Virus genome (UHGV): UHGV-0812067
Length of the DNA stretch: 17,252 bases
Origin: a virus
Strand: one strand, 5' to 3'
The notes below the pieces were generated by a model. That model was not told the origin of the DNA. It did not search any database and worked only from the letters and a program-made list of their open reading frames with translations. How positions within the stretch are numbered: position 1 is the stretch's first letter; the number at the start of each line of letters is the position of its first letter. The translations under genes and the position numbers were made by a program. This document shows positions 573 through 10,105 of this stretch, in pieces.

Positions 573-1901
573 ATGACGTGGAAAGACAGGCTTCAGGATG
601 CGTCATTTCGCGGCGTACCGTTTAAGGTTGAAGAAGAAAGTGCGGGAACCGGTCGCCGTGTGGAAACACACGAATATCCGAACCGCGACAAGCCCTATAC
701 CGAAGATCTGGGAAAAGTCACTTTCCGCCCGTCCATCACAGCTTATGTGGTGGGAGATGACTGCTTTGACCAGCGCGATCGCCTGATTGACGCGCTGAAT
801 AAACCCGGTCCCGGCACGCTTGTCCACCCGACATATGGTGAGCTGAAAGTCTGTGTTGACGGGGAAGTTCGGGTCAGCACATCGAAAAGTGAAGGGCGTA
901 TTGTCCGCTTTGACCTGAAGTTTGTCGAAGCGGGAGAACTCTCTTACCCCACATCAGGTGCGGCGACGGCGCAGACGCTGATGTCATCCTGTTCTGCACT
1001 GGATGACTGCATCAGTGACAGCTTCAGCGGTTTCAGTATCGATGGTGTGGCGGATTTCGTGCAGAACGACGTTATCGGTAATGCCAGCATAATGCTGGGG
1101 TATGTTTCTGATGCGATGAAAGTGGTGGATTCTGCCGTATCGGATGCCGCCAGGCTGTTGCAGGGGGATATCTCGGTACTTCTGCCGCCGCCATCGTCAG
1201 GCAAAAATTTCGTTGAGCAGGTGCAGAAAATGTGGCGTACCGGGAAACGCCTTTATGGTAACGCCAGCGACCTGGTCACCATGATCAAAACGCTTTCCGG
1301 TGTCAGCCTCGGCAGCGATCTGCAACCGCGCGGCATCTGGAAAACGGACAGTAAAACCACCGCCACGGCGACGCAGCAGCGTAACGTGGTTGCCAGCACC
1401 CTTCGTACGACCGCAATCAGCGAAGCGGCGTATGCCGTCACCCGATTGCCTGCGCCAACAACTTCCGCGGTGATGCAGAATGCCGCAGTGGGGCAGGCAA
1501 CAACACCTGCGCAGAGCACTGGCTGGCCTTCCGTCACGCATCCGGCACTGAACAATGCACCGGCGGTGAAAAACACGGTTGACCTGCCGACGTGGGAAGA
1601 ACTGACTGACATTCGCGACACACTGAATACGGCAATTGATAAGGAGTTGTCCCGTACAACCAGTGATGCGCTGTTTCTGGCGCTGCGCCGGGTGAAAGCA
1701 GATCTGAATGCGGATATCAACACGCGCCTTGAACAGTCTGCACGGATCATTCAGCGCACACCGGATGAGGTTTTACCCGCGCTGGTGCTGGCGGCGACCT
1801 GGTTTGATAACGCGGCGCGTGACGCGGACATTATCCGGCGTAATGCCATTACGCATCCCGGCTTTGTGCCGGTGATCCCTCTGAAGGTGCCAGTGCAATG
1901 A
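573..1901 (+). CDS. Mu gp43 (N)-like DNA circulation protein / tail-baseplate-associated protein
   Basis: ATG at 573 preceded by GGAG (564-567). N-terminus MTWKDRLQDASFRGVPFKV... is typical of the Mu-type DNA circulation protein N-terminal domain. Stop overlaps the next start (ATGA at 1898-1901). Confidence 0.8.
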   Translation: MTWKDRLQDASFRGVPFKVEEESAGTGRRVETHEYPNRDKPYTEDLGKVTFRPSITAYVVGDDCFDQRDRLIDALNKPGPGTLVHPTYGELKVCVDGEVRVSTSKSEGRIVRFDLKFVEAGELSYPTSGAATAQTLMSSCSALDDCISDSFSGFSIDGVADFVQNDVIGNASIMLGYVSDAMKVVDSAVSDAARLLQGDISVLLPPPSSGKNFVEQVQKMWRTGKRLYGNASDLVTMIKTLSGVSLGSDLQPRGIWKTDSKTTATATQQRNVVASTLRTTAISEAAYAVTRLPAPTTSAVMQNAAVGQATTPAQSTGWPSVTHPALNNAPAVKNTVDLPTWEELTDIRDTLNTAIDKELSRTTSDALFLALRRVKADLNADINTRLEQSARIIQRTPDEVLPALVLAATWFDNAARDADIIRRNAITHPGFVPVIPLKVPVQ

Positions 1902-2977
1902 ACGACAATGTCACGCTACGGATAAATGGCCGGGAGTGGAATGGCTGGACATCGGTGCGCATCGGTGCCGGTATTGAACGGCTGGCGCGGGATTTCAGTG
2001 TGGAGATCACCCGCCAGTGGCCGGGAGATGAGGGTATTACCACGCTTCAGCCGCGCATTAAAAACGGTTCAAAAGTGGAGGTGCTGATTGGTGATGAGCT
2101 GGTGATCACCGGCTGGGTGGAGGCGACGCCCGTTCGTTACGATGCCCGTTCGGTCAGCACCGGTATTGCCGGACGCAGTCTGACCGCTGACTTGATTGAC
2201 TGTGCAGCCGAACCGACACAGTTTAACGGACGATCGCTGGTACAGATTGCGCAGGCGCTTGCTGCGCCTTTCGGCATTGAGGTGGTGAACAACGGTGCGC
2301 CGTCGGGTGTTATTCCTGATGTCCAGCCTGATCACGGTGAAACGGTGATTGAGGTAATCAACAAAATACTCGGTCAGCAGCAGGCACTGGCTTACGACGA
2401 CCCGCACGGCAGGCTGGTGATTGGCGGTATTGGCTCAACGCGGGCACATACTGCGCTGGTACTCGGGGAAAACATCCTTTCCTGCGATACGGAGAAGAGT
2501 ATCCGGGAGCGGTTTTCTGTTTACCAGGTGGCGGGGCAGCGTGCCGGAAACGACGATGATTTCGGTGAGGCCACCACCACCGCGCTGCGGGCCCGCACAG
2601 AGGACGCATTTATTGCCCGTTACCGTCCGATGTATATCAGGCAGACAGGGCAGGCTACGGGGGCAGGCTGTATTGCCCGTGCGGACTTTGAAGCCCGACA
2701 ACGGGCGGCGCGGACGGATGAAACCACCTATGTGGTGCAGGGCTGGCGACAGGGTAACGGTACGCTGTGGCAGCCCAACCAGCGGGTGATTGTCTTTGAT
2801 CCGGTCTGTGGTTTCGACAATACCGAACTGCTTGTTTCGGAAGTCACGTTTACTCAGGACCAGAACGGCACCCTGACGGAAATCCGTGTCGGCCCGCCTG
2901 ATGCTTATCTGCCTGAACCCGAAGCCCCCGGCGCGCGGAAAAAGAAAAAAGCCAGAGTACAGGAGGACCCGTTCTGA
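1898..2977 (+). CDS. Mu gp44 (P)-like baseplate hub protein
   Basis: 359-aa ORF coupled to neighbours by overlapping stop/start. Position and size match the Mu/P2 gpD-type hub in the conserved baseplate gene order. Confidence 0.75.
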   Translation: MNDNVTLRINGREWNGWTSVRIGAGIERLARDFSVEITRQWPGDEGITTLQPRIKNGSKVEVLIGDELVITGWVEATPVRYDARSVSTGIAGRSLTADLIDCAAEPTQFNGRSLVQIAQALAAPFGIEVVNNGAPSGVIPDVQPDHGETVIEVINKILGQQQALAYDDPHGRLVIGGIGSTRAHTALVLGENILSCDTEKSIRERFSVYQVAGQRAGNDDDFGEATTTALRARTEDAFIARYRPMYIRQTGQATGAGCIARADFEARQRAARTDETTYVVQGWRQGNGTLWQPNQRVIVFDPVCGFDNTELLVSEVTFTQDQNGTLTEIRVGPPDAYLPEPEAPGARKKKKARVQEDPF

Positions 2978-3525
2978 TGAAGGCGATTGAAACCATACAG
3001 CGACAACTCCTCGGCCTGATTGGGCGGGCGGTGGTGAAAAGCATCAGTGCCGCCACGAAATGTCAGACCGTGGATGTGTCCCTGATTGCCGGTGAACCCA
3101 AAGCCGGGGTTGAACATCTTGAACCCTACGGTTTTACCGCAAGGGCAAACAGCGGTGCGGAAGCGGTGGTGTTGTTTCCGGATGGCGACCGTTCTCATGC
3201 GGTGGTTGTTACGGTGTCGGACCGGCGCTACCGCCTGAAAGGGCTGCAGACGGGTGAGGTGGCTGTCTATGACGATCAGGGGCAGTCCGTGACGCTGGCC
3301 CGGGAGGGGATCGTGGTGGACGGTGCAGGTAAAACGATCACGTTTCGCAATGCGCCTAAGGCACGTTTTGAAATGGACCTGGAAGTGACCGGACAGGTGA
3401 AAGACCTGTGCGACTCCACCGGCACCACCATGTCAGCGATGCGGCTTGCCTATAACGGGCATCGTCACAGAGAGAACGGTCAGGGCAGTAACACCGACAA
3501 ACCTGATAAAGTGATGGAGGCATGA
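2977..3525 (+). CDS. Mu gp45 / gpV-like baseplate spike protein
   Basis: 182-aa ORF with AGGAGGA upstream (2961-2967) and start overlapping the upstream stop. Sequence and size are typical of phage baseplate assembly protein V. Confidence 0.75.
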   Translation: MKAIETIQRQLLGLIGRAVVKSISAATKCQTVDVSLIAGEPKAGVEHLEPYGFTARANSGAEAVVLFPDGDRSHAVVVTVSDRRYRLKGLQTGEVAVYDDQGQSVTLAREGIVVDGAGKTITFRNAPKARFEMDLEVTGQVKDLCDSTGTTMSAMRLAYNGHRHRENGQGSNTDKPDKVMEA

Positions 3526-3950
3526 TGGAACTGTGGCTGACGGTGAACGGTAAACGCACCTGCGCCAGCGCACAACTGGATCCGCTGACCCGCGCCGTGG
3601 TGATTTCCCTGTTTACCTGGCGGCGGGCGGAGCCTGATGACAACGCCGAAGTCCCGATGGGATGGTGGGGGGATACCTGGCCTGCGGTACAGAATGACCG
3701 TTACGGCTCCCGACTGTGGCTGCTTCAGCGCAGCAAACTGACCAATCAGCTGGTGCAGACGGTAAGGGGGTATATCCGCGAATGCCTGCAATGGATGATT
3801 GATGACGGCGTGGTGTCCCGTATTGATCTGGATATCCGCCGCACCGGGATTAATGAACTGGGTAACAGTATCACTCTCTGGCGTCGTGACGGACCGGTAA
3901 TGATTTCTTTTGATGATCTGTGGAGTGCGATAACGCATGGCGGACAGTGA
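3525..3950 (+). CDS. Mu gp46 / gpW-like baseplate wedge protein
   Basis: ORF track starts at 3522 (ATGATG); the second ATG at 3525 has better spacing from GGAGG (3516-3520). About 140 aa, consistent with the GP46/gpW family by position and size. Confidence 0.7.
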   Translation: MELWLTVNGKRTCASAQLDPLTRAVVISLFTWRRAEPDDNAEVPMGWWGDTWPAVQNDRYGSRLWLLQRSKLTNQLVQTVRGYIRECLQWMIDDGVVSRIDLDIRRTGINELGNSITLWRRDGPVMISFDDLWSAITHGGQ

Positions 3951-4995
3951 ATTTCAGCGCCCGACGCTGGCAGAAAATATCAGTATGCTCCGTAACGATT
4001 TATTCGCCAGGCTGGACGTCAGCGACACGCTCCGGCGCATGGATGAAGACGTGCGGGCAAAGGTGTATGCGGCGGCGCTGCATACGGTTTACGGTTACAT
4101 CGATTATCTGGCAATGAACATGCTGCCTGATCTGTGCGATGAGTCCTGGCTGGCGCGACATGCTGCGATGAAACGGTGTCCGCGCAAGGGGGCCACGGCT
4201 GCCAGCGGGTATATGCGCTGGGAAGGTGTCAGCGATGGCCTGAAGGTGACCGCCGGGAGTGTTATTCAGCGCGATGACCTGGTTCAGTACACGGCAACTG
4301 CCGATGCAACCAGCACTGGTGGTGTCCTGCGTGTGCCGATCACTTGCTCAACTACAGGCGCGGTCGGTAACGCTGACGACGGTACGGCATTAATCCTGGT
4401 CACACCGGTGAATGGTCTGCCGTCTTCCGGTGTGGCTGACACCCTGACAGGCGGATTTGATACTGAAGAGCTGGAAACGTGGCGCGCCCGCGTCATTGAG
4501 CGGTATTACTGGACGCCTCAGGGCGGGGCTGACGGGGACTATGTCGTCTGGGCTAAAGAAGTGCCCGGCATTACCCGCGCATGGACATACCGTCACTGGA
4601 TGGGAACGGGAACTGTCGGTGTGATGATTGCCAGCAGTGACCTGATTAATCCCATTCCGGAAGAATCAACGGAAACGGCAGCAAGACAACATATCGGGCC
4701 ACTGGCCCCGGTGGCAGGCTCTGATTTGTATGTATTCAGGCCGGTGGCACATACGGTGGATTTTCATATCCGCGTGACGCCGGACACACCGGAAATACGG
4801 GCTGCCATTACCGCGGAGTTGCGTTCGTTCCTGCTGCGTGATGGTTATCCGCAGGGAGAACTGAAGGTATCGCGTATCAGTGAAGCGATTTCCGGTGCGA
4901 ACGGGGAATACAGCCATCAGTTGCTTGCACCGGTGGACAATATCTCCATTGCAAAAAATGAACTGGCGGTACTGGGGACGATTTCATGGACGTGA
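3937..4995 (+). CDS. Mu gp47 / baseplate J-like protein
   Basis: 352-aa ORF overlapping the upstream gene by 14 nt. Size and position match baseplate J-like wedge proteins (gpJ of P2, gp47 of Mu, JayE of e14). Confidence 0.8.
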
Positions 4996-5570
4996 CAAAC
5001 GATGATTACATCCGTCTGTTGTCGGCACTGTTGCCCCCCGGTCCGGCGTGGTCAGCCAGCGATCCGGCGATTGCCGGTGCGGCACCGTCATTAACCCGCG
5101 TTCATCAGCGTGCGGATGCCCTGATGCGGGAGCTGGATCCGCGCACCACCACCGAACTGATAAATCGCTGGGAGCGTCTGTGCGGCCTGCCGGATGAATG
5201 TATTCCGGCGGGAACGCAGACCCTTCGCCAGCGTCAGCAACGACTGGATGCGAAGGTTAACCTGGCGGGCGGCATCAACGAGGATTTTTATCTTGCACAG
5301 CTTGCTGCCCTGGGCAGACCAGACGCTACCATCACGCGATACGACAAAAGCACGTTCATCTGCTCATCTGCCTGTACTGACGCGGTGAATGCGCCGGAAT
5401 GGCGGTATTACTGGCAGGTCAACATGCCAGCCGCCACCAACACCACCTGGATGACATGTGGCGATCCCTGTGATTCCGCGCTGCGTATCTGGGGCGACAC
5501 CGTTGTCGAGTGTGTGCTTAACAAACTCTGCCCGTCGCATACCTACGTAATTTTTAAATATCCGGAGTAA
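4986..5570 (+). CDS. Mu gp48 / gpI-like tail protein (YmfQ/DUF2313-type)
   Basis: 194-aa ORF overlapping the upstream gene by 10 nt and lying immediately upstream of the tail-fibre gene, as in Mu/P2/e14-type modules. Confidence 0.75.
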
Positions 5571-5573
5571 TCC

Positions 5574-6536
5574 ATGCATCGTATAGACACGAAAACCGCG
5601 CAGAAGGATAAGTTCGGCGCGGGTAAGAACGGTTTTACCCGTGGTAACCCCCAGACCGGCACACCTGCCACCGATCTGGATGATGACTACTTTGACATGT
5701 TGCAGGAAGAACTTTGTAGCGTGGTGGAGGCCTCCGGTGCCAGCCTGGAGAAAGGGCGGCATGACCAGCTGCTTACCGCACTTCGTGCGCTGCTGTTAAG
5801 CCGCAAGAATCCGTTTGGCGATATCAAATCGGACGGCACGGTGGAAACGGCTCTCGAAAACCTTGGTTTGGGAGATGCCAACGGATATGTGGGCCGAAAG
5901 GTTGCGGAAAAATGGATAACGACATCTGGGACATATACGCCTACACCGGGAACAAAAAAAATCAGGGTAACGATAATTGGCGGAGGCGGCGGCGGGGGCA
6001 GTGGGCAAACAAACTCTGCTGGATACGTATCTGCCGGGTCTGGTGGAGGTGCCGGTGGTGTGGCTCGTAAAACAATTGACGTTACCAGTGTTTCATCAGT
6101 GTCCGTAACCATCGGTTCAGGCGGTAATCCAGGTGTCTTCTCTTCAAATCAGCCTGGTGATGGTGGTACCACAAGTTTTGGCTCCTACATGACAGCTGGC
6201 GGGGGTGGCCGAGGAAATAACTGTGGCTCGGTAGCATTCGGTGTTACTCAGTTAATTGCGAACGGTGGCGGCGGGGTTGGTTCAGGAGGTGATATCAACA
6301 CCATCGGCGGCTCTGGCGGCCCGGCGATAATTCTGGGACAGGGGTACACCAGCGGCGGCGGTGGCAACTCAATAGTAGCTGGAGGTGGACAGCCTATTGC
6401 AACAACGTCATCAATGAGTGGAATTGATGGCTCATATGGTTCTGGTGGGTCAGGCGCTTACATTCTGGCCAGCGGTAGTGAAAAAAATGGCGGACGTGGT
6501 GGTGATGGCGTTTGTATCGTTGAGGAGTATGCATAA
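5574..6536 (+). CDS. tail fibre protein, expressed form in this orientation (constant N-terminus + glycine-rich variable C-terminus)
   Basis: ATG at 5574 with GGAG (5563-5566). N-terminus [40 protein letters not shown]... is the conserved phage tail-fibre N-terminal domain. From about residue 98 the protein is extremely Gly/Ser-rich. The inversion crossover site lies inside the gene at 5851-5876. Confidence 0.85.
5851..5876. repeat. invertase crossover site, left (gix/cix/pix/hix-like, 12-2-12 layout)
   Basis: ctctcgaaaacc tt ggtttgggagat: two half-sites resembling the invertase half-site consensus (..TC..AAACC) around a central TT. The 11 bp ttggtttggga (5863-5873) is the exact reverse complement of 7677-7687. 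Confidence 0.7.
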
Positions 6537-6943
6537 TGAATAACATTTATGCTGTTGTTGAAAATGGCGTGGTGATCAACATCGTCGTCTGGGATGGGAA
6601 ATCGGAATGGCAACCGGTAACTGGGGAGGCTGTTTCTTGTTCTGCTCAGGTTGGTATCGGCTGGTTGTATGATGGAAGTAATTTCACCCAGCCACCAACA
6701 CCCGAGCAGACTCCAGAAGAATTAGCAGCGGCAAACATGGCTAAAGCTGCATCTGAGTATGAACGTGCCAGCGTAGTCATTGTAGCGCTAAATGAGCAGA
6801 TCGAAGACGAGGACTACGCAGGGACTACGGAAGAGGCCGTGAAATCAGAATTGGCCGCATGGACTGACTATCGTAAACAGCTTCGCGCTTACATTAAGGC
6901 CGGGGATGGCAGCCAGACACTACCATCCTTTGTAATGATTTAA
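6536..6943 (+). CDS. tail fibre assembly/chaperone-like protein for the current fibre form
   Basis: ATG overlaps the fibre stop (TAATG at 6534-6538) with GAGGAG upstream (6522-6527). C-terminus ...AWTDYRKQLRAYIKA resembles the Tfa C-terminal W-x-x-YR motif. The N-terminal part is not classic Tfa. Confidence 0.55.
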   Translation: MNNIYAVVENGVVINIVVWDGKSEWQPVTGEAVSCSAQVGIGWLYDGSNFTQPPTPEQTPEELAAANMAKAASEYERASVVIVALNEQIEDEDYAGTTEEAVKSELAAWTDYRKQLRAYIKAGDGSQTLPSFVMI

Positions 6944-7323
6944 ACTGGTCGTGTAGGCCACTCTATATCGGGAGCCGTGCTGGTATCAGTTCGCATCACG
7001 GCAACCCGATAATCTTCCCACGAGGTTAATCTAGCAGCTTCTTCATCAGTCGCTATTCCTGCGGTTACTGCATATTGAAGAGGTGATATTGCAAAAGTTG
7101 CTGCCGCCAGCAGCTCTGCTTTTTTCTGATTTGCAATCGCTACTTGCTGATCATGAGTCAGTGGCGCAGGGTCGCTCAGTTCGGGAAAACCACTTTCGTT
7201 TGCAATAATTACCTTTCCTCCCGCCTGCCCAATCACCAATTCTGACCAGTAGTCGTCGGTAATCTCCACCTGGCTATCACTCATCCGCCCAACCGTAAAT
7301 CCAATCTCTGTGGAATAAAACAT
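6940..7323 (-). CDS. tail fibre assembly protein (Tfa), alternative-orientation copy
   Basis: C-terminus ...ATDEEAARLTSWEDYRVAVMRTDTSTAPDIEWPTRPV matches the conserved Tfa C-terminal motif. Its stop codon overlaps the convergent + strand stop within TTTAAA (6940-6943). Confidence 0.8.
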   Translation of the reverse strand: MFYSTEIGFTVGRMSDSQVEITDDYWSELVIGQAGGKVIIANESGFPELSDPAPLTHDQQVAIANQKKAELLAAATFAISPLQYAVTAGIATDEEAARLTSWEDYRVAVMRTDTSTAPDIEWPTRPV

Positions 7324-7685
7324 TACGCACTCCCCATAGCCATATATTTAAAAGAAAAAGATCCGTTCAGATTTGCCCCTGCGGCATCCTTTCCGTAAAT
7401 TGTCACAACCGAACCTGATTCAGGAATGGCGGCATAACTAACAACGCCTGAGCCAATATCAGTCGGGATAAAAGTAAAACCAGTGCTGGGGTAAGCCAAT
7501 GGAAGAGTAAAGCTCAGTACGCCGTTAACAAAATTTCCAGATCCACTGCCCTCCATTATTCTACGGTTTCCTGCAATCACTATTGAAGTAAATACGTTTG
7601 AAGCGCCAGCGTATGTGAAGTTTGACATGTCTGGAATTTGACCAGTTCCTGTACCCACATCTTTTTTGGCTGCTGTTCCCAAACC
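7323..7685 (-). CDS. silent alternative tail-fibre C-terminal segment (Sv'-like), lacks its own N-terminus in this orientation
   Basis: Minus-strand frame is open from the stop at 7692-7694 through the crossover site to TAA at 7323-7325. It reads ...KVGLGTAAKKDVGTGTGQ..., with GLG encoded by the same ggtttggga as NLGLGD in the + fibre, in the same frame. The TTG 'start' in the ORF track is probably not a real start. Confidence 0.65.
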   Translation of the reverse strand, partial: GLGTAAKKDVGTGTGQIPDMSNFTYAGASNVFTSIVIAGNRRIMEGSGSGNFVNGVLSFTLPLAYPSTGFTFIPTDIGSGVVSYAAIPESGSVVTIYGKDAAGANLNGSFSFKYMAMGSA

Positions 7686-7699
7686 AACCTTTCAAATAT
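7674..7699. repeat. invertase crossover site, right
   Basis: tgttcccaaacc aa cctttcaaatat: the left half-site matches the half-site consensus well, the right half is degenerate. It carries the 11-bp inverted repeat tcccaaaccaa (7677-7687). Confidence 0.65.
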
Positions 7700-7726
7700 T
7701 TTTCTGAATCAGGTGATATTTCGCCT

Positions 7727-7753
7727 CTTCTCCTGTTTTTACAACAGGAGAAG
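7727..7753 (+). promoter_or_regulatory. hairpin sequestering the invertase Shine-Dalgarno
   Basis: cttctcctgt (7727-7736) and acaggagaag (7744-7753) form a perfect 10-bp inverted repeat with loop ttttaca. The right arm contains AGGAG (7746-7750), the RBS for the ATG at 7759. Confidence 0.4.
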
Positions 7754-7758
7754 CACTC

Positions 7759-8322
7759 ATGATTTACGGGTATGTTCGTGTATCAACAAATCATCAGGAT
7801 ACAGAGTTGCAACGTCTTGCACTTGAGTCAGCTGGCTGTGAGCGAATTTATGAAGAATATGCCAGTGGCAGAACAGCTAATCGCCCTGTGTTAAAGGAAT
7901 TAATTACGGTGATGAAAAGTGGAGATGAGTTGATTGTCTGGAAGTTAGATCGGATAGGGAGAAATGTGCTGCATGCGCTATTGATGTTTCAAAATCTGCA
8001 CGAAAAAGGTGTTAATTTTCGGAGTATTACAGATGGCGTAGACCTGAAAACAGCAAGTGGTCGCTATAATTTCCGTAATATTCTTTCTGCTGCGCAGTAT
8101 GAATCTGATTTGAATAGCGAGCGAACTTTAGCTGGTTTGGCTATTGCCAGATCCAAAGGCCGGATTGGTGGGCGTAGACCGAAGTTTAGCGACGAGCAGT
8201 GGCAACAGATGGGAGCGCTCATAGCGGCAGGGAAATCACGGCGTTATGTTGCACGTATCTATAACGTTGGGCTATCAACCCTATATAAACGATTTCCTGT
8301 TACTGGCATTCAAACGAAATAA
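7759..8322 (+). CDS. serine DNA invertase (Gin/Cin/Pin/Hin family resolvase-type recombinase)
   Basis: MIYGYVRVSTNHQDTELQ... contains the catalytic Ser motif (YVRVS), VWKLDRIGR, GRIGGRRPK and a C-terminal HTH ...GLSTLYKRFP. It is 187 aa and sits adjacent to the invertible segment. Confidence 0.9.
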   Translation: MIYGYVRVSTNHQDTELQRLALESAGCERIYEEYASGRTANRPVLKELITVMKSGDELIVWKLDRIGRNVLHALLMFQNLHEKGVNFRSITDGVDLKTASGRYNFRNILSAAQYESDLNSERTLAGLAIARSKGRIGGRRPKFSDEQWQQMGALIAAGKSRRYVARIYNVGLSTLYKRFPVTGIQTK

Positions 8323-8361
8323 TTTAAAAGCAATTTAAAGAGTTATTTGTCTAATGTTGGA

Positions 8362-8399
8362 AGCCGCAGCCACGTCGTATGCAAGAACGTGCTGCGGCT
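8362..8399. terminator. hairpin between convergent invertase and dinI-like genes (possible bidirectional terminator)
   Basis: agccgcagccacg (8362-8374) pairs with cgtgctgcggct (8388-8399), about 12 bp with one bulge. There is no clear U-tract on either side. Confidence 0.35.
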
Positions 8400-8465
8400 G
8401 GCTGGCGAACTTTCGATAGTGCGAGTATTGAATGATTTCCAGCCGTTACCGATTTTACGTGTTAA

Positions 8466-8714
8466 TTAGTGAACAAACCACTCGTCAGCAGATTCCCAGG
8501 TATCTTTCAGAGTCTCCTGAACAAAAGTTTTTGCAGAATCCTTATCTGCGGTGCGTGTAACAGAAAGGCCATCGTTGCTGGTGGCTTTTACGATCACCTC
8601 TACATCGTCATAACGTTTACTGATGCGTCGGGTTAATTCTTCCTTTAACGCATCCACAGCACCGGTTGGCATTTTAGTCATTTTTTCTTTGGCTATGCAG
8701 ATTTCAATACGCAT
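8466..8714 (-). CDS. dinI: DinI-family (DNA damage-inducible protein I-like) protein
   Basis: 82 aa, [11 protein letters not shown]...AVDALKEEL...[11 protein letters not shown], closely resembling the DinI pattern (MRIEVTIAK...ETWESADDWF). SD-like GAGGGA precedes the start; LexA-box-like palindromes lie upstream. Confidence 0.85.
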
Positions 8715-8727
8715 AAAAGTCCCTCTA

Positions 8728-8747
8728 TACTGTGTTTGTATACAGTA
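8728..8747. promoter_or_regulatory. LexA (SOS) box 1
   Basis: TACTGTGTTTGTATACAGTA, a perfect CTGT-N8-ACAG palindrome matching the consensus TACTG(TA)5CAGTA, located 14 bp upstream of the dinI-like start codon. Confidence 0.75.
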
Positions 8748-8755
8748 TTATTTTT

Positions 8756-8775
8756 AACTGTATGGATAAACAGTG
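8756..8775. promoter_or_regulatory. LexA (SOS) box 2
   Basis: AACTGTATGGATAAACAGTG, a second CTGT-N8-ACAG element 8 bp from box 1 and directly abutting the integrase stop codon (8776-8778). Confidence 0.6.
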
Positions 8776-9873
8776 TCAAGGGGTCTTATTTCTGCTCCTT
8801 TGGAGCTCTTCAAAACGATTATGTAAAGATTTCGGATACAGTTCGGTATATACCTGCCATAGCACGTTTAATGAACGATGCCCTGTAACCTGGGCTACTT
8901 CCTCAATACTAAAACCAGCCTCAAATAAGCGACTTGCCCCTTCTCTACGCAAATCATGGTATCGCAGATCCTTAATACCTAATTTGCTTCTTACCCTCTG
9001 AAATCCCGCAGTAACAGAAGTGCTGTTATATGGAAAAATGAATTCCGATTTTTTGGGCTGTCGTTGGACGATATCCCAGGCTTCCCCAAGCAAGGCTACT
9101 TTCATGTGGTTGCCTTCCTTTTTGCGTGGATCTTTCCTGTCTCTTACGAGTATAGATTTTTGTTCCTGGTCGAGATCTTCCCATCGTAACCGGCATACTT
9201 CTCCGATTCGCATACAGGACCACACAGAAAATTTGAGGATATCAACGAACGGAATTTTTGAGCATTTATGAGTAGATCGTTGTTGAAGGCCTTCAATGAG
9301 CATGTCCAGTTCATCAGATGCTGGTCTACGATTACGACGGTTTGATTTACCAATCAAACCAAGTTTAAGTAGATATGGACGAGCACTTTTCGCCGGGTTT
9401 GATGTGTAATTAATTCCGTATACAGGTTTGGCCGCATCCAGAACACTGCCAAGATAACTAACATCGTGGCTGACTGTTGCTGGACCTGCGCCAGCGTTGT
9501 TTCTTAGCCTGCAATGTTCAATTACGTCATTTTCTGTCAGTTCAGATAGTTTGATCGCGGAGATGTCACTATCCATAAGCAGTTCCAGCACATATCTTTT
9601 AGTACGGCCTGCTTTACCTCCGGCATTTGGGTCATTTAAATATTTGTGTAGTAAGTCACGGACTGTAAGTCCGTCAACTGCATTTGATGATGGAATGCCA
9701 TATAGATCTAATTCCATCACTTTCTGTGTGCCCCATGTTTTGGCATGAGCATGTTTAGGGAATGTTTTGCTTTCCCTGTAAGTGATAACACCTTTTTCTT
9801 TGATAATCACATTACAGCGATAGCGTGGTGTGCCATCGGATTTTAGTCGTTTCTCTATGTTATAGTACGCCAT
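8776..9873 (-). CDS. tyrosine site-specific recombinase (phage integrase)
   Basis: 365 aa. The C-terminal catalytic region has the R...HxxR...Y arrangement (...LRYHDLRREGASRL...VTGHRSLNVLWQVYTELYP). GAGG lies 7 nt upstream of the ATG at 9873. Confidence 0.9.
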   Translation of the reverse strand: MAYYNIEKRLKSDGTPRYRCNVIIKEKGVITYRESKTFPKHAHAKTWGTQKVMELDLYGIPSSNAVDGLTVRDLLHKYLNDPNAGGKAGRTKRYVLELLMDSDISAIKLSELTENDVIEHCRLRNNAGAGPATVSHDVSYLGSVLDAAKPVYGINYTSNPAKSARPYLLKLGLIGKSNRRNRRPASDELDMLIEGLQQRSTHKCSKIPFVDILKFSVWSCMRIGEVCRLRWEDLDQEQKSILVRDRKDPRKKEGNHMKVALLGEAWDIVQRQPKKSEFIFPYNSTSVTAGFQRVRSKLGIKDLRYHDLRREGASRLFEAGFSIEEVAQVTGHRSLNVLWQVYTELYPKSLHNRFEELQRSRNKTP

Positions 9874-9892
9874 TACACGACCTCGTTATTTC

Positions 9893-9929
9893 GGGTTCCC
9901 ATAAAACGTGGGAACCTGTGCGGGAACCT
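9893..9929. repeat. cluster of GGGAACC(T) motifs upstream of the integrase gene (candidate arm-type or regulatory binding sites)
   Basis: gggttccc (9893-9900, inverted), gggaacct (9910-9917) and gggaacct (9922-9929), lying 20-56 bp upstream of the integrase start. Confidence 0.45.
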
Positions 9930-10105
9930 AATGCGAGAAAAATAGCCTGAAATGTTCAAAAATGCACGATAATCATGAAACACAAAAAATTAATCAAACC
10001 AGCGTGATGCCTGAAAAAACTGGTGTTTACTGGAATTCTCGGTTTAGCATTGCTCCTATGCTCGATAGGATGTACCGTTTTTGAAAAACAAGTAGTTATA
10101 CACTT

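What the first reader, a model, noticed from the sequence alone, without database searches (positions are those of the whole stretch)
5851..8322. Complete tail-fibre inversion switch with mapped crossover sites and in-frame splice point
An exact 11-bp inverted repeat (ttggtttggga at 5863-5873, tcccaaaccaa at 7677-7687) sits inside 26-bp sites with invertase-like half-sites. At the left site the fibre frame reads ...ENLGLGD; at the right site the minus-strand frame reads KVGLGTAAKK. Recombination at the central dinucleotide would therefore fuse the constant 97-aa N-terminus in frame to a different C-terminal domain. Each orientation has its own chaperone, and the convergent chaperone genes share overlapping stops in TTTAAA. 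The layout mirrors the Mu G, P1 C and e14 P inversion systems. In this orientation the glycine-rich fibre is the expressed form.
Basis: seen in the sequence. Interest (0 to 1): 0.6.

Follow-up and report, generated by a model that had tools for sequence, protein, structure and literature searches.

The report
Phage tail-fibre inversion switch, confirmed
This is a real but ordinary example of a long-known phage device: a small enzyme flips a 1.8-kb DNA segment so that the phage tail fibre carries one of two tips, and other E. coli genomes hold the same segment flipped at exactly the predicted points.

Summary
The window is an SfV/SKA5-like temperate E. coli phage. Its fibre gene (5574-6536) is crossed at codon 97 by a 26-bp site (5851-5876). 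That site has the same outer half and core as the experimentally inverted e14 P-segment site. A weaker partner site lies at 7674-7699.

In-silico inversion of 5863-7687 gives a 217-aa fibre. A public E. coli contig (L002) carries the same module in that inverted state, with breakpoints on the 11-bp core and a reciprocal swap of the inner half-sites. Both orientations also occur in P2-like prophages and in a third tail type that carry the same 1,825-bp segment (0-8 mismatches in all but one copy).

This is a new member of a known kind (Mu G, P1 C, e14 P).
- In P2-like prophages, similarity to the segment stops within a few bases of the central TT at both ends. This suggests cassette exchange at the crossover sites.
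- The resident invertase belongs to a separate clade with phi80 PinL, only 50-54% identical to Gin, Cin and PinE. It lacks three of six Fis/enhancer-contact residues and the second enhancer Fis core. Fis dependence is therefore unproven.

The parts
5574..5864 (+). Constant fibre N-terminus, codons 1-97, which presumably attaches the fibre to the baseplate. It follows the Mu Gp48/YmfQ-type gene at 4986-5570.
   Evidence: Translation. It differs from the e14 StfP N-terminus at one residue before the site (VET versus VQT). PHROG tail-fibre families match residues 1-115.
5851..5876 (+). Left crossover site, CTCTCGAAAACC TT GGTTTGGGAGAT, with the central TT at 5863-5864.
   Evidence: It scores 16/16 against the gix/cix/pix half-site consensus. 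Its outer half and core are identical to the e14 left site. It is a breakpoint of the natural inversion in L002.
5863..7687 (.). Invertible segment, 1,825 bp counted from central dinucleotide to central dinucleotide.
   Evidence: It is found inverted relative to the same flanks in L002/L012. It occurs in both orientations in P2-like and Phage_Wedge1-type prophages, with 0-8 mismatches in all but one copy (L008, 55).
5865..6536 (+). Variable C-terminus A, the glycine-rich domain. It is the expressed form in this orientation.
   Evidence: Pfam Gly_rich_2 at E 5e-13 over residues 117-317. PHROG tail-fibre C-terminal families match.
6536..6943 (+). 135-aa putative assembly chaperone for the glycine-rich fibre. 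Its ATG overlaps the fibre stop (TAATG).
   Evidence: No Pfam or NCBIfam hit. phrog_188 'tail fiber assembly protein' at E 2.6e-8. It shares a W-DYR stretch with the 127-aa Tfa. It follows the glycine-rich cassette in every locus.
6940..7323 (-). 127-aa tail-fibre assembly protein for the alternative fibre. Its stop overlaps that of the 135-aa gene.
   Evidence: Pfam Caudo_TAP at E 1e-31 and phrog_188 at E 4e-43. Stop overlap shown.
7323..7685 (-). Silent variable C-terminus B (120 codons). It has no ATG, and a stop codon lies just upstream of the site.
   Evidence: The translation reads NI*KVGLGTAAKK.... phrog_36707 tail-fibre C-terminus at E 3e-30. It is expressed as 217-, 234- and 470-aa fibres in L002, L007 and L004.
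7674..7699 (+). Right crossover site, TGTTCCCAAACC AA CCTTTCAAATAT, with the central AA at 7686-7687. Its outer half-site is divergent (ATATTTGAAAGG on the other strand).
   Evidence: It scores 12/16 against the consensus. It is a breakpoint of the natural inversion. This outer half-site is found with the 187-aa invertase in every locus that has it.
7727..7753 (+). Hairpin with an 11-bp stem and a 5-nt loop. It contains the invertase Shine-Dalgarno sequence AGGAG, 5 nt before the ATG.
   Evidence: Fold energy -29.3 kcal/mol for 7700-7790, z = -5.0. The same repeat is annotated as IR3 upstream of pinL in phi80.
7759..8322 (+). 187-aa serine DNA invertase of the phi80 PinL-like clade.
   Evidence: Pfam Resolvase and HTH_7. 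Best solved relative is the Gin invertase, E 1e-56. The catalytic residues R7, S9, D64, R65, R68, E121 and R122 are kept. It is 100% identical to the invertase of phage SKA5.

Best explanation
This is a Pin/Gin/Cin-type tail-fibre host-range switch in an SfV/SKA5-like temperate E. coli phage.

Mechanism. Dimers of the 187-aa serine invertase (7759-8322) bind the two 26-bp sites at 5851-5876 and 7674-7699, which lie in inverted orientation. In a synaptic tetramer all four strands are cut around the central TT/AA dinucleotide. [quoted passage not shown] This inverts the 1,825 bp between 5863 and 7687.

Consequence. The fibre promoter, start codon and first 97 codons lie outside the segment. Each orientation therefore fuses the same baseplate-attachment N-terminus in frame to one of two receptor-binding C-termini and places the cognate chaperone directly downstream.
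- As sequenced: a 320-aa glycine-rich fibre followed by the 135-aa protein.
- After inversion: a 217-aa fibre followed by the 127-aa Tfa.
The unexpressed cassette has no start codon and is preceded by a stop. A lysogen population would thus release particles of two adsorption specificities.

Shown here: the anatomy, the in-frame splice, and that the reciprocal inversion has occurred in nature at this core.
Inferred: cleavage exactly at the TT dinucleotide (by analogy with cix in the P1 record and with Hin/Gin biochemistry), that the resident invertase rather than a co-resident Pin enzyme does the work, the rate and regulation of switching, and the receptors of the two fibres.
For: Anatomy.

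Site quality: left 16/16 and right 12/16 against a consensus built from Mu, P1 and e14. These are the only two hits in the window. The sites were aligned to real gix, cix and e14 sequences. The P1 record places the cix crossover inside the central TT.

Natural inversion: window 5300-5873, 5863-7687 (reversed) and 7677-8500 align to L002 at 97-99.8%, with overlaps on the 11-bp core. The inner half-sites are swapped reciprocally. The predicted 217-aa fusion equals the L002 protein. The host of L002 is E. coli.

Both orientations also occur in P2-like and Phage_Wedge1-type backbones.

Experimental precedent on the same core sequence comes from e14 (PMC12529663, PMC4272514).

Invertase: the catalytic residues are intact. 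An identical invertase sits in the same layout in the isolated phage SKA5.
Against: No data from a single population show both orientations, so ongoing switching in this particular phage is not shown.

The invertase is only 50-54% identical to Gin, Cin and PinE, which are 75-85% identical to each other. It has not been characterised as far as my literature searches show.

The right site is a weak match in its outer half.

PinE, PinQ and PinR are reported to act in trans on this kind of site (PMC12529663), so the observed inversions do not prove that the resident enzyme is active.

No convincing sigma-70 promoter for the invertase was found.
Confidence: 0.9

Rival explanations
1. The switch is real, but the resident 187-aa invertase is not the enzyme that drives it, or is inactive. 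On this view the inversions are catalysed in trans by canonical Pin-family invertases of other prophages in the same cell.
For: PinE, PinQ and PinR are reported to all invert the e14 P segment, which has the same core (PMC12529663). The same segment with the same inner half-sites sits next to PinE-like invertases in P2-like prophages, sometimes in the same genome as the 187-aa type. The resident enzyme differs from the canonical ones at regulatory positions.
Against: All catalytic residues and the HTH_7 domain are intact. The protein is kept nearly unchanged (99-100%) on at least 1,000 contigs and in the isolated phage SKA5. That argues for selection on function. The divergent outer half-site ATATTTGAAAGG always accompanies this invertase, although physical linkage could explain that.
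Confidence: 0.2
2. The orientation differences between genomes arose by RecA-dependent homologous recombination between the short inverted repeats, not by site-specific recombination.
For: An inverted repeat is present, and inversions between short repeats are known in E. coli.
Against: The exact repeat is only 11 bp, or 16 bp with two mismatches. Many other 10-13-bp inverted repeats in the region show no rearrangement. The repeat sits in full invertase sites next to an invertase gene. The same breakpoints recur independently in three phage backbones. The e14 homologue inverts in an invertase-dependent way (PMC12529663).
Confidence: 0.03
3. In the lysogen the module serves the host as a defence as well as, or instead of, serving phage host range. 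This would resemble the e14 StfE2 chimera that blocks T2 adsorption. Here a free C-terminal fibre domain would be made from the silent side, using TTG 7682 with GAAAGG upstream and a minus-strand promoter-like site at 7786-7759.
For: The e14 precedent (PMC12529663). There is a TTG with a purine-rich stretch upstream at the start of the silent cassette. There is a promoter-like match on the minus strand inside the 5' end of the invertase gene.
Against: The promoter scan found 3 sites against 4.1 expected by chance. A stop codon lies one codon upstream of the site, and there is no e14-like leader ORF. The window belongs to an apparently complete phage, with intact baseplate genes and an isolated relative in SKA5, so the classical host-range role suffices.
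Confidence: 0.1
4. The repeat and the gene layout are coincidental, and nothing inverts.
For: The 11-bp repeat alone is within chance.
Against: The inverted configuration exists with reciprocal junctions in L002, and in two other backbones.
Confidence: 0.01

Closest known systems
e14 P-segment inversion of E. coli K-12 (stfP-tfaP / tfaE-stfE, PinE)
   Same: Same gene order downstream of ymfQ. The constant fibre N-terminus differs at one residue before the site. The left outer half-site and core are identical (CTCTCGAAAACC TT GGTTTGGGA). The segments are of similar size: 1,829 bp by the same count, reported as 1,797 bp in the paper, against 1,825 bp here (PMC12529663).
   Different: The two C-terminal cassettes and chaperones are unrelated at DNA level. 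The invertase is only 54% identical to PinE. The invertase-side outer half-site differs (ATATTTGAAAGG versus TTTTCATAAACG). There is no leader ORF on the silent side. e14 is a defective remnant, whereas this is an apparently complete phage.
Mu G segment (Gin/gix) and P1 C segment (Cin/cix)
   Same: The layout is a constant Sc part, variable Sv plus U, and inverted U' plus Sv'. In Mu, as here, the invertase gene follows the segment. The sites are 26 bp with 12-bp half-sites. cix shares the central TT.
   Different: The constant part here is much shorter (97 aa) and the segment is smaller (1.8 kb versus 3-4.2 kb). Gin and Cin carry the Fis-contact residues and the paired Fis-like cores at +29/30 and +78, which this invertase lacks in part. 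The central dinucleotide of Mu is TC.
Escherichia phage SKA5 (OR670062) and SfV-like prophages at dusA in E. coli
   Same: Baseplate genes are 98% identical. The invertase is 100% identical. The order ymfQ, fibre, tfa, tfa', fibre', invertase, dinI, int is the same.
   Different: The content of the invertible segment differs. The segment in this window gave no megablast match in 5,426 complete E. coli genomes or in 50,697 phage records.
phi80 PinL and mEp237 invertases
   Same: Same invertase clade (79-80% identity), same upstream hairpin (IR3 in phi80), and the same neighbourhood of dinI and int.
   Different: phi80 has only pseudogene remnants of a fibre cassette next to pinL. Here the switch is complete.
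P2-like prophage fibre inversions in E. coli (Goldberg et al. 2014, PMC4272514)
   Same: Several P2-like loci carry the very same 1,825-bp segment in both orientations.
   Different: The constant fibre part (P2 H-like), the outer half-sites and the invertase (PinE-like, 188-197 aa) all differ.

Membership tests
Invertase-driven tail-fibre switches (Mu G, P1 C, e14 P) | A small serine recombinase with a resolvase catalytic domain, a catalytic serine near residue 9-10 and a C-terminal HTH, encoded next to the segment. | tested here: met
   Pfam Resolvase (E 3e-36) and HTH_7 (E 7e-12). The Gin structure is the best solved hit, E 1e-56. S9, R7, D64, R65, R68, E121 and R122 are conserved.
Invertase-driven tail-fibre switches (Mu G, P1 C, e14 P) | Two 26-bp sites in inverted orientation. 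Each has two 12-bp half-sites around a 2-bp centre, and both sites have the same asymmetric central dinucleotide. | tested here: met
   Sites at 5851-5876 (16/16) and 7674-7699 (12/16) against the consensus nTnTCnnAAACC, both with TT/AA at the centre. Aligned with real gix, cix and e14 sites.
Invertase-driven tail-fibre switches (Mu G, P1 C, e14 P) | One site lies inside the fibre ORF, so that inversion exchanges the C-terminus in frame. The alternative cassette has no start of its own. | tested here: met
   In-silico inversion gives a 217-aa ORF. The silent cassette is preceded by a stop and has no ATG.
Invertase-driven tail-fibre switches (Mu G, P1 C, e14 P) | Each variable cassette is followed by its own assembly chaperone, and the two chaperone genes converge. 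| tested here: met
   The 127-aa protein matches Caudo_TAP. The 135-aa protein has only weak support from phrog_188 at E 2.6e-8 and a W-DYR motif. The stops overlap.
Invertase-driven tail-fibre switches (Mu G, P1 C, e14 P) | Both orientations of the segment occur, with breakpoints in the sites. | tested here: met
   Shown by comparison of public assemblies: L002/L012 against the window and L009, L007/L018 against L003/L014, and L004 and others against L008/L019/L020. Not tested within one population.
Fis/enhancer-dependent DNA invertases (Hin, Gin, Cin, Pin) | A recombinational enhancer in the 5' part of the invertase gene, with two Fis cores about 48 bp apart. The P1 record annotates it at +19 to +90 of cin. 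| tested here: inconclusive
   PinE, Gin, Cin and two P2-like invertases share G...C cores at +29/30 and +78. The window keeps a Fis-like core at +27. At +78 it reads CAGCTGGCTGTGAGC, with no G at position -7, and phi80 loses both end positions there. My scoring is crude and Fis sites are degenerate.
Fis/enhancer-dependent DNA invertases (Hin, Gin, Cin, Pin) | Residues that contact Fis and the enhancer: Hin K47, K/R48, K/R51, Q151, R154 and L155 (PMC3798978). These are Gin positions 46, 47, 50, 150, 153 and 154. | tested here: not met
   The window has K, E, T, Q, A, L, so three of six are lost. phi80 and mEp237 have K, R, A, E, E, R. All five canonical sequences have K, K/R, K/R, Q, R, L.
Fis/enhancer-dependent DNA invertases (Hin, Gin, Cin, Pin) | Helix-E residues that lock the inactive dimer: Hin Phe105 and Met109 (PMC4513852). 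These are Gin positions 104 and 108. | tested here: not met
   The window clade has N104 and I108. F105, the equivalent of the essential Hin Phe106, is kept. Hin F105N gave Fis-independent inversion and SOS induction (PMC4513852).
e14 P system specifically (PinE orthologue) | An invertase orthologous to PinE. | tested here: not met
   54% identity to PinE. PinE, Gin, Cin and the P2-like enzymes are 75-85% identical to each other. The window enzyme groups with phi80 PinL at 80%.
Multi-site inversion systems (p15B Min type, 3-repeat P2-like prophages) | Three or more crossover sites that give more than two fibre variants. | tested here: not met
   Only two sites score 12 or more in the whole window, and the 11-mer core occurs only twice.

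The most novel reading that the evidence does not exclude
The resident invertase may represent a distinct PinL-like clade of tail-fibre invertases that has given up the canonical Fis/enhancer control.

- Three of the six residues that in Hin touch Fis or the enhancer are replaced.
- The Phe/Met lock of helix E is Asn/Ile, and Hin F105N is Fis-independent.
- The second Fis core of the enhancer is degenerate.
- A strong hairpin buries the ribosome-binding site, and an SOS-controlled dinI gene sits next door.

If this reading is right, the enzyme would be a naturally Fis-independent or otherwise regulated DNA invertase, held in check by low translation rather than by the invertasome.
Probability: 0.3. 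Interest if true: 0.5.

Novelty: new member of a known kind. Interest (0 to 1): 0.3.

Why it matters
The switch adds little to principle, because fibre inversion by Gin/Cin/Pin enzymes has been textbook material since the 1980s. It is still useful in three ways.

1. It is a clean, fully intact example in which the crossover core is confirmed by natural reciprocal products.
2. The same 1.8-kb segment, identical or nearly so, sits in three unrelated tail architectures. In P2-like prophages the similarity ends at the crossover points. This illustrates how receptor-binding modules travel between phages, and it matters for predicting or engineering host range.
3. The invertase clade is widespread: the exact protein is on at least 1,000 contigs of E. 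coli and Salmonella. My literature searches found no characterisation of it. It differs from Hin, Gin and Cin at exactly the residues that govern Fis dependence, which gives a simple testable question.

Tried and rejected
- Megablast of the segment interior against 5,426 complete E. coli genomes found nothing. The distant mode gave only 6-10% coverage at about 77%. The phage collection gave nothing.
- An exact 33-mer from the tfa/tfa junction found nothing in genome contigs or viral contigs.
- A protein-based scan of genome contigs with the glycine-rich domain also found nothing. Species representatives therefore do not carry this cassette. It was found only through exact-protein look-ups.
- My first Fis scan with a simple score was not discriminating. 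It became interpretable only after the P1 record supplied the annotated enhancer position, and it remains inconclusive.
- I could not retrieve published hix/gix/cix tables or Fis-site sequences from the paper library. I used the annotated Mu, P1 and K-12 records instead.
- A family-wide consensus fold for the hairpin upstream of the invertase start was not found. The hairpin is specific to the PinL-like clade, and L004 has a possible analogue.
- A third crossover site was sought in the window and in L005, which has an extra 1.9 kb. None was found.
- The sigma-70 scan gave no invertase promoter and fewer hits than chance.
- I considered and rejected chance, homologous recombination and assembly error. 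Assembly error is unlikely because the repeats are far shorter than reads, so an assembler cannot flip the segment.


Full report
**What is in the sequence**

The 11-mer TTGGTTTGGGA occurs exactly twice in the window, at 5863-5873 on the + strand and 7677-7687 on the - strand. By itself this is unremarkable. In 13 of 200 shuffles the 11-mer matched at least twice, and the surrounding 3.8 kb contains many inverted repeats of 10-13 nt.

The context is what counts. Each copy lies in a 26-bp unit of two 12-bp half-sites around a central dinucleotide:
- 5851-5876: CTCTCGAAAACC TT GGTTTGGGAGAT
- 7674-7699, other strand: ATATTTGAAAGG TT GGTTTGGGAACA

I scored the window with the half-site consensus nTnTCnnAAACC. 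I derived it from the Mu, P1 and e14 sites read out of the annotated records. The left site scores 16/16 and the right site 12/16. They are the only two 26-mers at or above 12 in the 17 kb, and shuffles give 0.69 such hits per window.

**Genes**

| Coordinates | Strand | Product | Evidence |
|---|---|---|---|
| 573-5570 | + | Mu-type baseplate genes, ending in Baseplate_J and Gp48/YmfQ |; 98% identical to phage SKA5 and SfV-like phages, |
| 5574-6536 | + | 320-aa fibre, Pfam Gly_rich_2 over residues 117-317 | |
| 6536-6943 | + | 135-aa protein, no Pfam; phrog_188 'tail fiber assembly protein' E 2.6e-8; shares a W-DYR stretch with the next protein | |
| 6940-7323 | - | 127-aa Caudo_TAP protein, E 1e-31 | |
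| 7323-7685 | - | Fibre C-terminal cassette (phrog_36707), frame reads NI*KVGLGTAAKK, so no start and a stop just before the site | |
| 7759-8322 | + | 187-aa resolvase-family protein with HTH_7 | |

The two chaperone genes end in overlapping TAA codons inside TTTAAA at 6939-6944. Each fibre/chaperone pair is joined by a TAATG overlap.

**The splice point**

The central TT occupies positions 2-3 of codon 97 (cTT) on the left and of gTT on the right. Inverting 5863-7687 in silico yields a 217-aa ORF: 97 constant residues, then GLGTAAKK....

**Does it invert?**

I looked up the two chaperone proteins by exact sequence in public assemblies. L002/L012 is an E. coli contig; its chromosomal flank is 100% identical to E. 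coli. It has the same baseplate, fibre N-terminus, invertase and DinI as the window, but it encodes a 217-aa fibre followed by the 127-aa Tfa, with the glycine-rich cassette silent.

BLAST of the window against L002 gives three pieces:
- 5300-5873, forward
- 5863-7687, reversed, 99.8% identical
- 7677-8500, forward

The pieces overlap on the 11-bp core. The outer half-sites stay where they are and the inner half-sites have changed partners. That is the reciprocal product expected of site-specific recombination within TTGGTTTGGGA. The 217-aa protein of L002 differs from my in-silico fusion at 3 residues. L009 has the window orientation.

The crossover is thus mapped by comparison to the 11-bp core. 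The TT dinucleotide is its first two bases. Placing the cut there rests on analogy with the P1 record, which annotates the cix crossover inside the central TT, and with Hin/Gin biochemistry.

**Relation to e14**

The e14 StfP N-terminus differs from the window's constant part at one residue before the site. The e14 left site has the same outer half-site and core. The e14 repeat TTGGTTTGGGAGAAGG is the published inversion site of the P segment, which is inverted by PinE, PinQ and PinR (PMC12529663). Coexisting orientations have been shown in clonal K-12 cultures (PMC4272514). The window's core is the first 11 bases of that repeat. The window is therefore the intact-phage counterpart of the e14 remnant, with different cargo.

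**Cargo and its mobility**

The interior of the segment has no megablast match in 5,426 complete E. coli genomes or in the phage collection. The flanks match thousands of E. coli prophages at 98%.

The same 1,825-bp segment nevertheless occurs, with 0-8 mismatches in all but one copy (L008, 55), in three unrelated tail backbones:
- the Mu-like backbone of the window
- P2-like prophages, with fibres of 470 aa or 573/499 aa depending on orientation
- a Phage_Wedge1/Sheath_initiator type, with fibres of 234 or 342 aa

Both orientations occur in each backbone. Two such prophages can share one genome: L017 with L018, and L007 with L008.

In the P2-like loci, similarity to the window begins at 5858-5863 and ends at 7687. 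The outer half-sites and everything beyond them are different. On the invertase side the first difference is two bases before the TT. The simplest reading is that the whole segment has been exchanged between phages by recombination at both crossover sites. This extends the classical observation that Mu G and P1 C are homologous while the rest of those genomes are not (homology blocks annotated in the P1 record). I count it as a clean example, not a new principle. In the Wedge1-type loci the shared block is larger (5799-8458, including the invertase), so ordinary recombination also moves the module.

**The invertase**

The catalytic residues are intact, and Gin is the best solved relative. However, the protein is only 50-54% identical to PinE, Gin, Cin and the P2-like invertases. 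Those are 75-85% identical to one another. The window enzyme is 79-80% identical to phi80 PinL and the mEp237 invertase, and 100% identical to that of phage SKA5.

McLean et al. (PMC3798978) identify Hin K47, K/R48, K/R51, Q151, R154 and L155 as contacts with Fis and the enhancer that are conserved in Fis-dependent invertases. At the equivalent Gin positions:

| Sequences | 46 | 47 | 50 | 150 | 153 | 154 |
|---|---|---|---|---|---|---|
| Five canonical invertases | K | K/R | K/R | Q | R | L |
| Window | K | E | T | Q | A | L |
| phi80 PinL, mEp237 | K | R | A | E | E | R |

Hin Phe105 and Met109 lock the inactive dimer. F105N gives Fis-independent inversion and SOS induction (PMC4513852). The window clade has Asn and Ile at these positions and keeps the essential following Phe.

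The P1 record annotates the Cin enhancer at +19 to +90 of cin. In that interval the canonical genes share G...C cores at +29/30 and +78. Cin even keeps the G at position -7 of the second core by using AGC for a serine. The window has a Fis-like core at +27, but at +78 it reads CAGCTGGCTGTGAGC.

Canonical Pin enzymes act in trans (PMC12529663), so the natural inversions do not prove that the resident enzyme is the active one. I rate that rival at 0.2.

**Other features**

- An 11-bp-stem hairpin (7727-7753, z = -5) encloses the invertase Shine-Dalgarno sequence. It is the IR3 repeat annotated in phi80.
- No family-wide consensus fold was found for it, and no convincing invertase promoter.
- Downstream lie dinI with two LexA boxes, a dusA-type integrase, a dusA 5' fragment and then early genes. 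The window is therefore in the phage (attP) configuration.

**Verdict**

It is a new member of a well-known kind. Interest is modest (0.3). It comes mainly from the natural proof of the crossover core, the portability of the segment between tail types, and an uncharacterised invertase clade that lacks the hallmarks of Fis control.

Noticed in passing
window 5863-7687; L004, L006, L008, L011, L013, L015-L020 (P2-like); L003, L007, L014, L018 (Phage_Wedge1 type): The same 1,825-bp invertible segment (0-8 mismatches, one copy with 55) sits in three unrelated tail architectures. In P2-like prophages the similarity stops within a few bases of the central TT at both ends. Two carriers can share one genome (GCA_026614615.1, GCA_021229615.1). 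This suggests cassette exchange at the crossover sites.
   Followed up: partly
window 7759-8322: The invertase forms a separate clade with phi80 PinL and mEp237. It lacks three of six Fis/enhancer-contact residues and has Asn/Ile in place of the Hin Phe105/Met109 lock. The exact protein is on at least 1,000 contigs of E. coli and Salmonella.
   Followed up: partly
window 7727-7753: A perfect 11-bp stem with a 5-nt loop encloses the invertase Shine-Dalgarno sequence, 5 nt before the ATG (fold z = -5). It is identical in phi80, where it is annotated IR3. It probably keeps invertase translation low.
   Followed up: partly
window 8730-8745 and 8758-8773: Two exact LexA-box matches (CTGT-N8-ACAG; 0.23 expected by chance) lie upstream of the minus-strand dinI gene (8466-8714). 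They overlap a promoter-like site at 8779-8750. The gene next to the invertase therefore looks SOS-controlled.
   Followed up: partly
window 8776-10100: The integrase (8776-9873, -) is followed by a short dusA 5' fragment (about 9990-10070, ...RFSIAPMLD...) and then directly by early-region genes. This matches phage SKA5 and a 43.7-kb circular record of E. coli AH02. The window is in the unintegrated (attP) configuration of a dusA-targeting phage.
   Followed up: partly
window 5574-6536: NCBI records name this glycine-rich tail fibre 'carbohydrate kinase [Escherichia coli]' (for example MCX9227735.1). This looks like a misannotation.
   Followed up: no
window 7680-7790, minus strand: A promoter-like match (7786-7759) and a TTG at 7682 with GAAAGG upstream could allow weak expression of the free C-terminal cassette from the silent side. 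That would resemble the e14 StfE2 chimera, but the promoter scan is not above chance.
   Followed up: no
window 7096-7115, plus strand: A terminator-like hairpin with a T-run lies about 150 nt after the stop of the 135-aa gene, antisense within the 127-aa gene. It could end the fibre transcript before it reads into the silent half. No counterpart was found on the other strand.
   Followed up: no
L005 7461-9438 (= L016): One P2-like prophage has an extra 1.9 kb with three small ORFs between the segment and the invertase, and a different outer half-site (CTCTCTTTAAGG). No third site was found with my consensus scan.
   Followed up: partly
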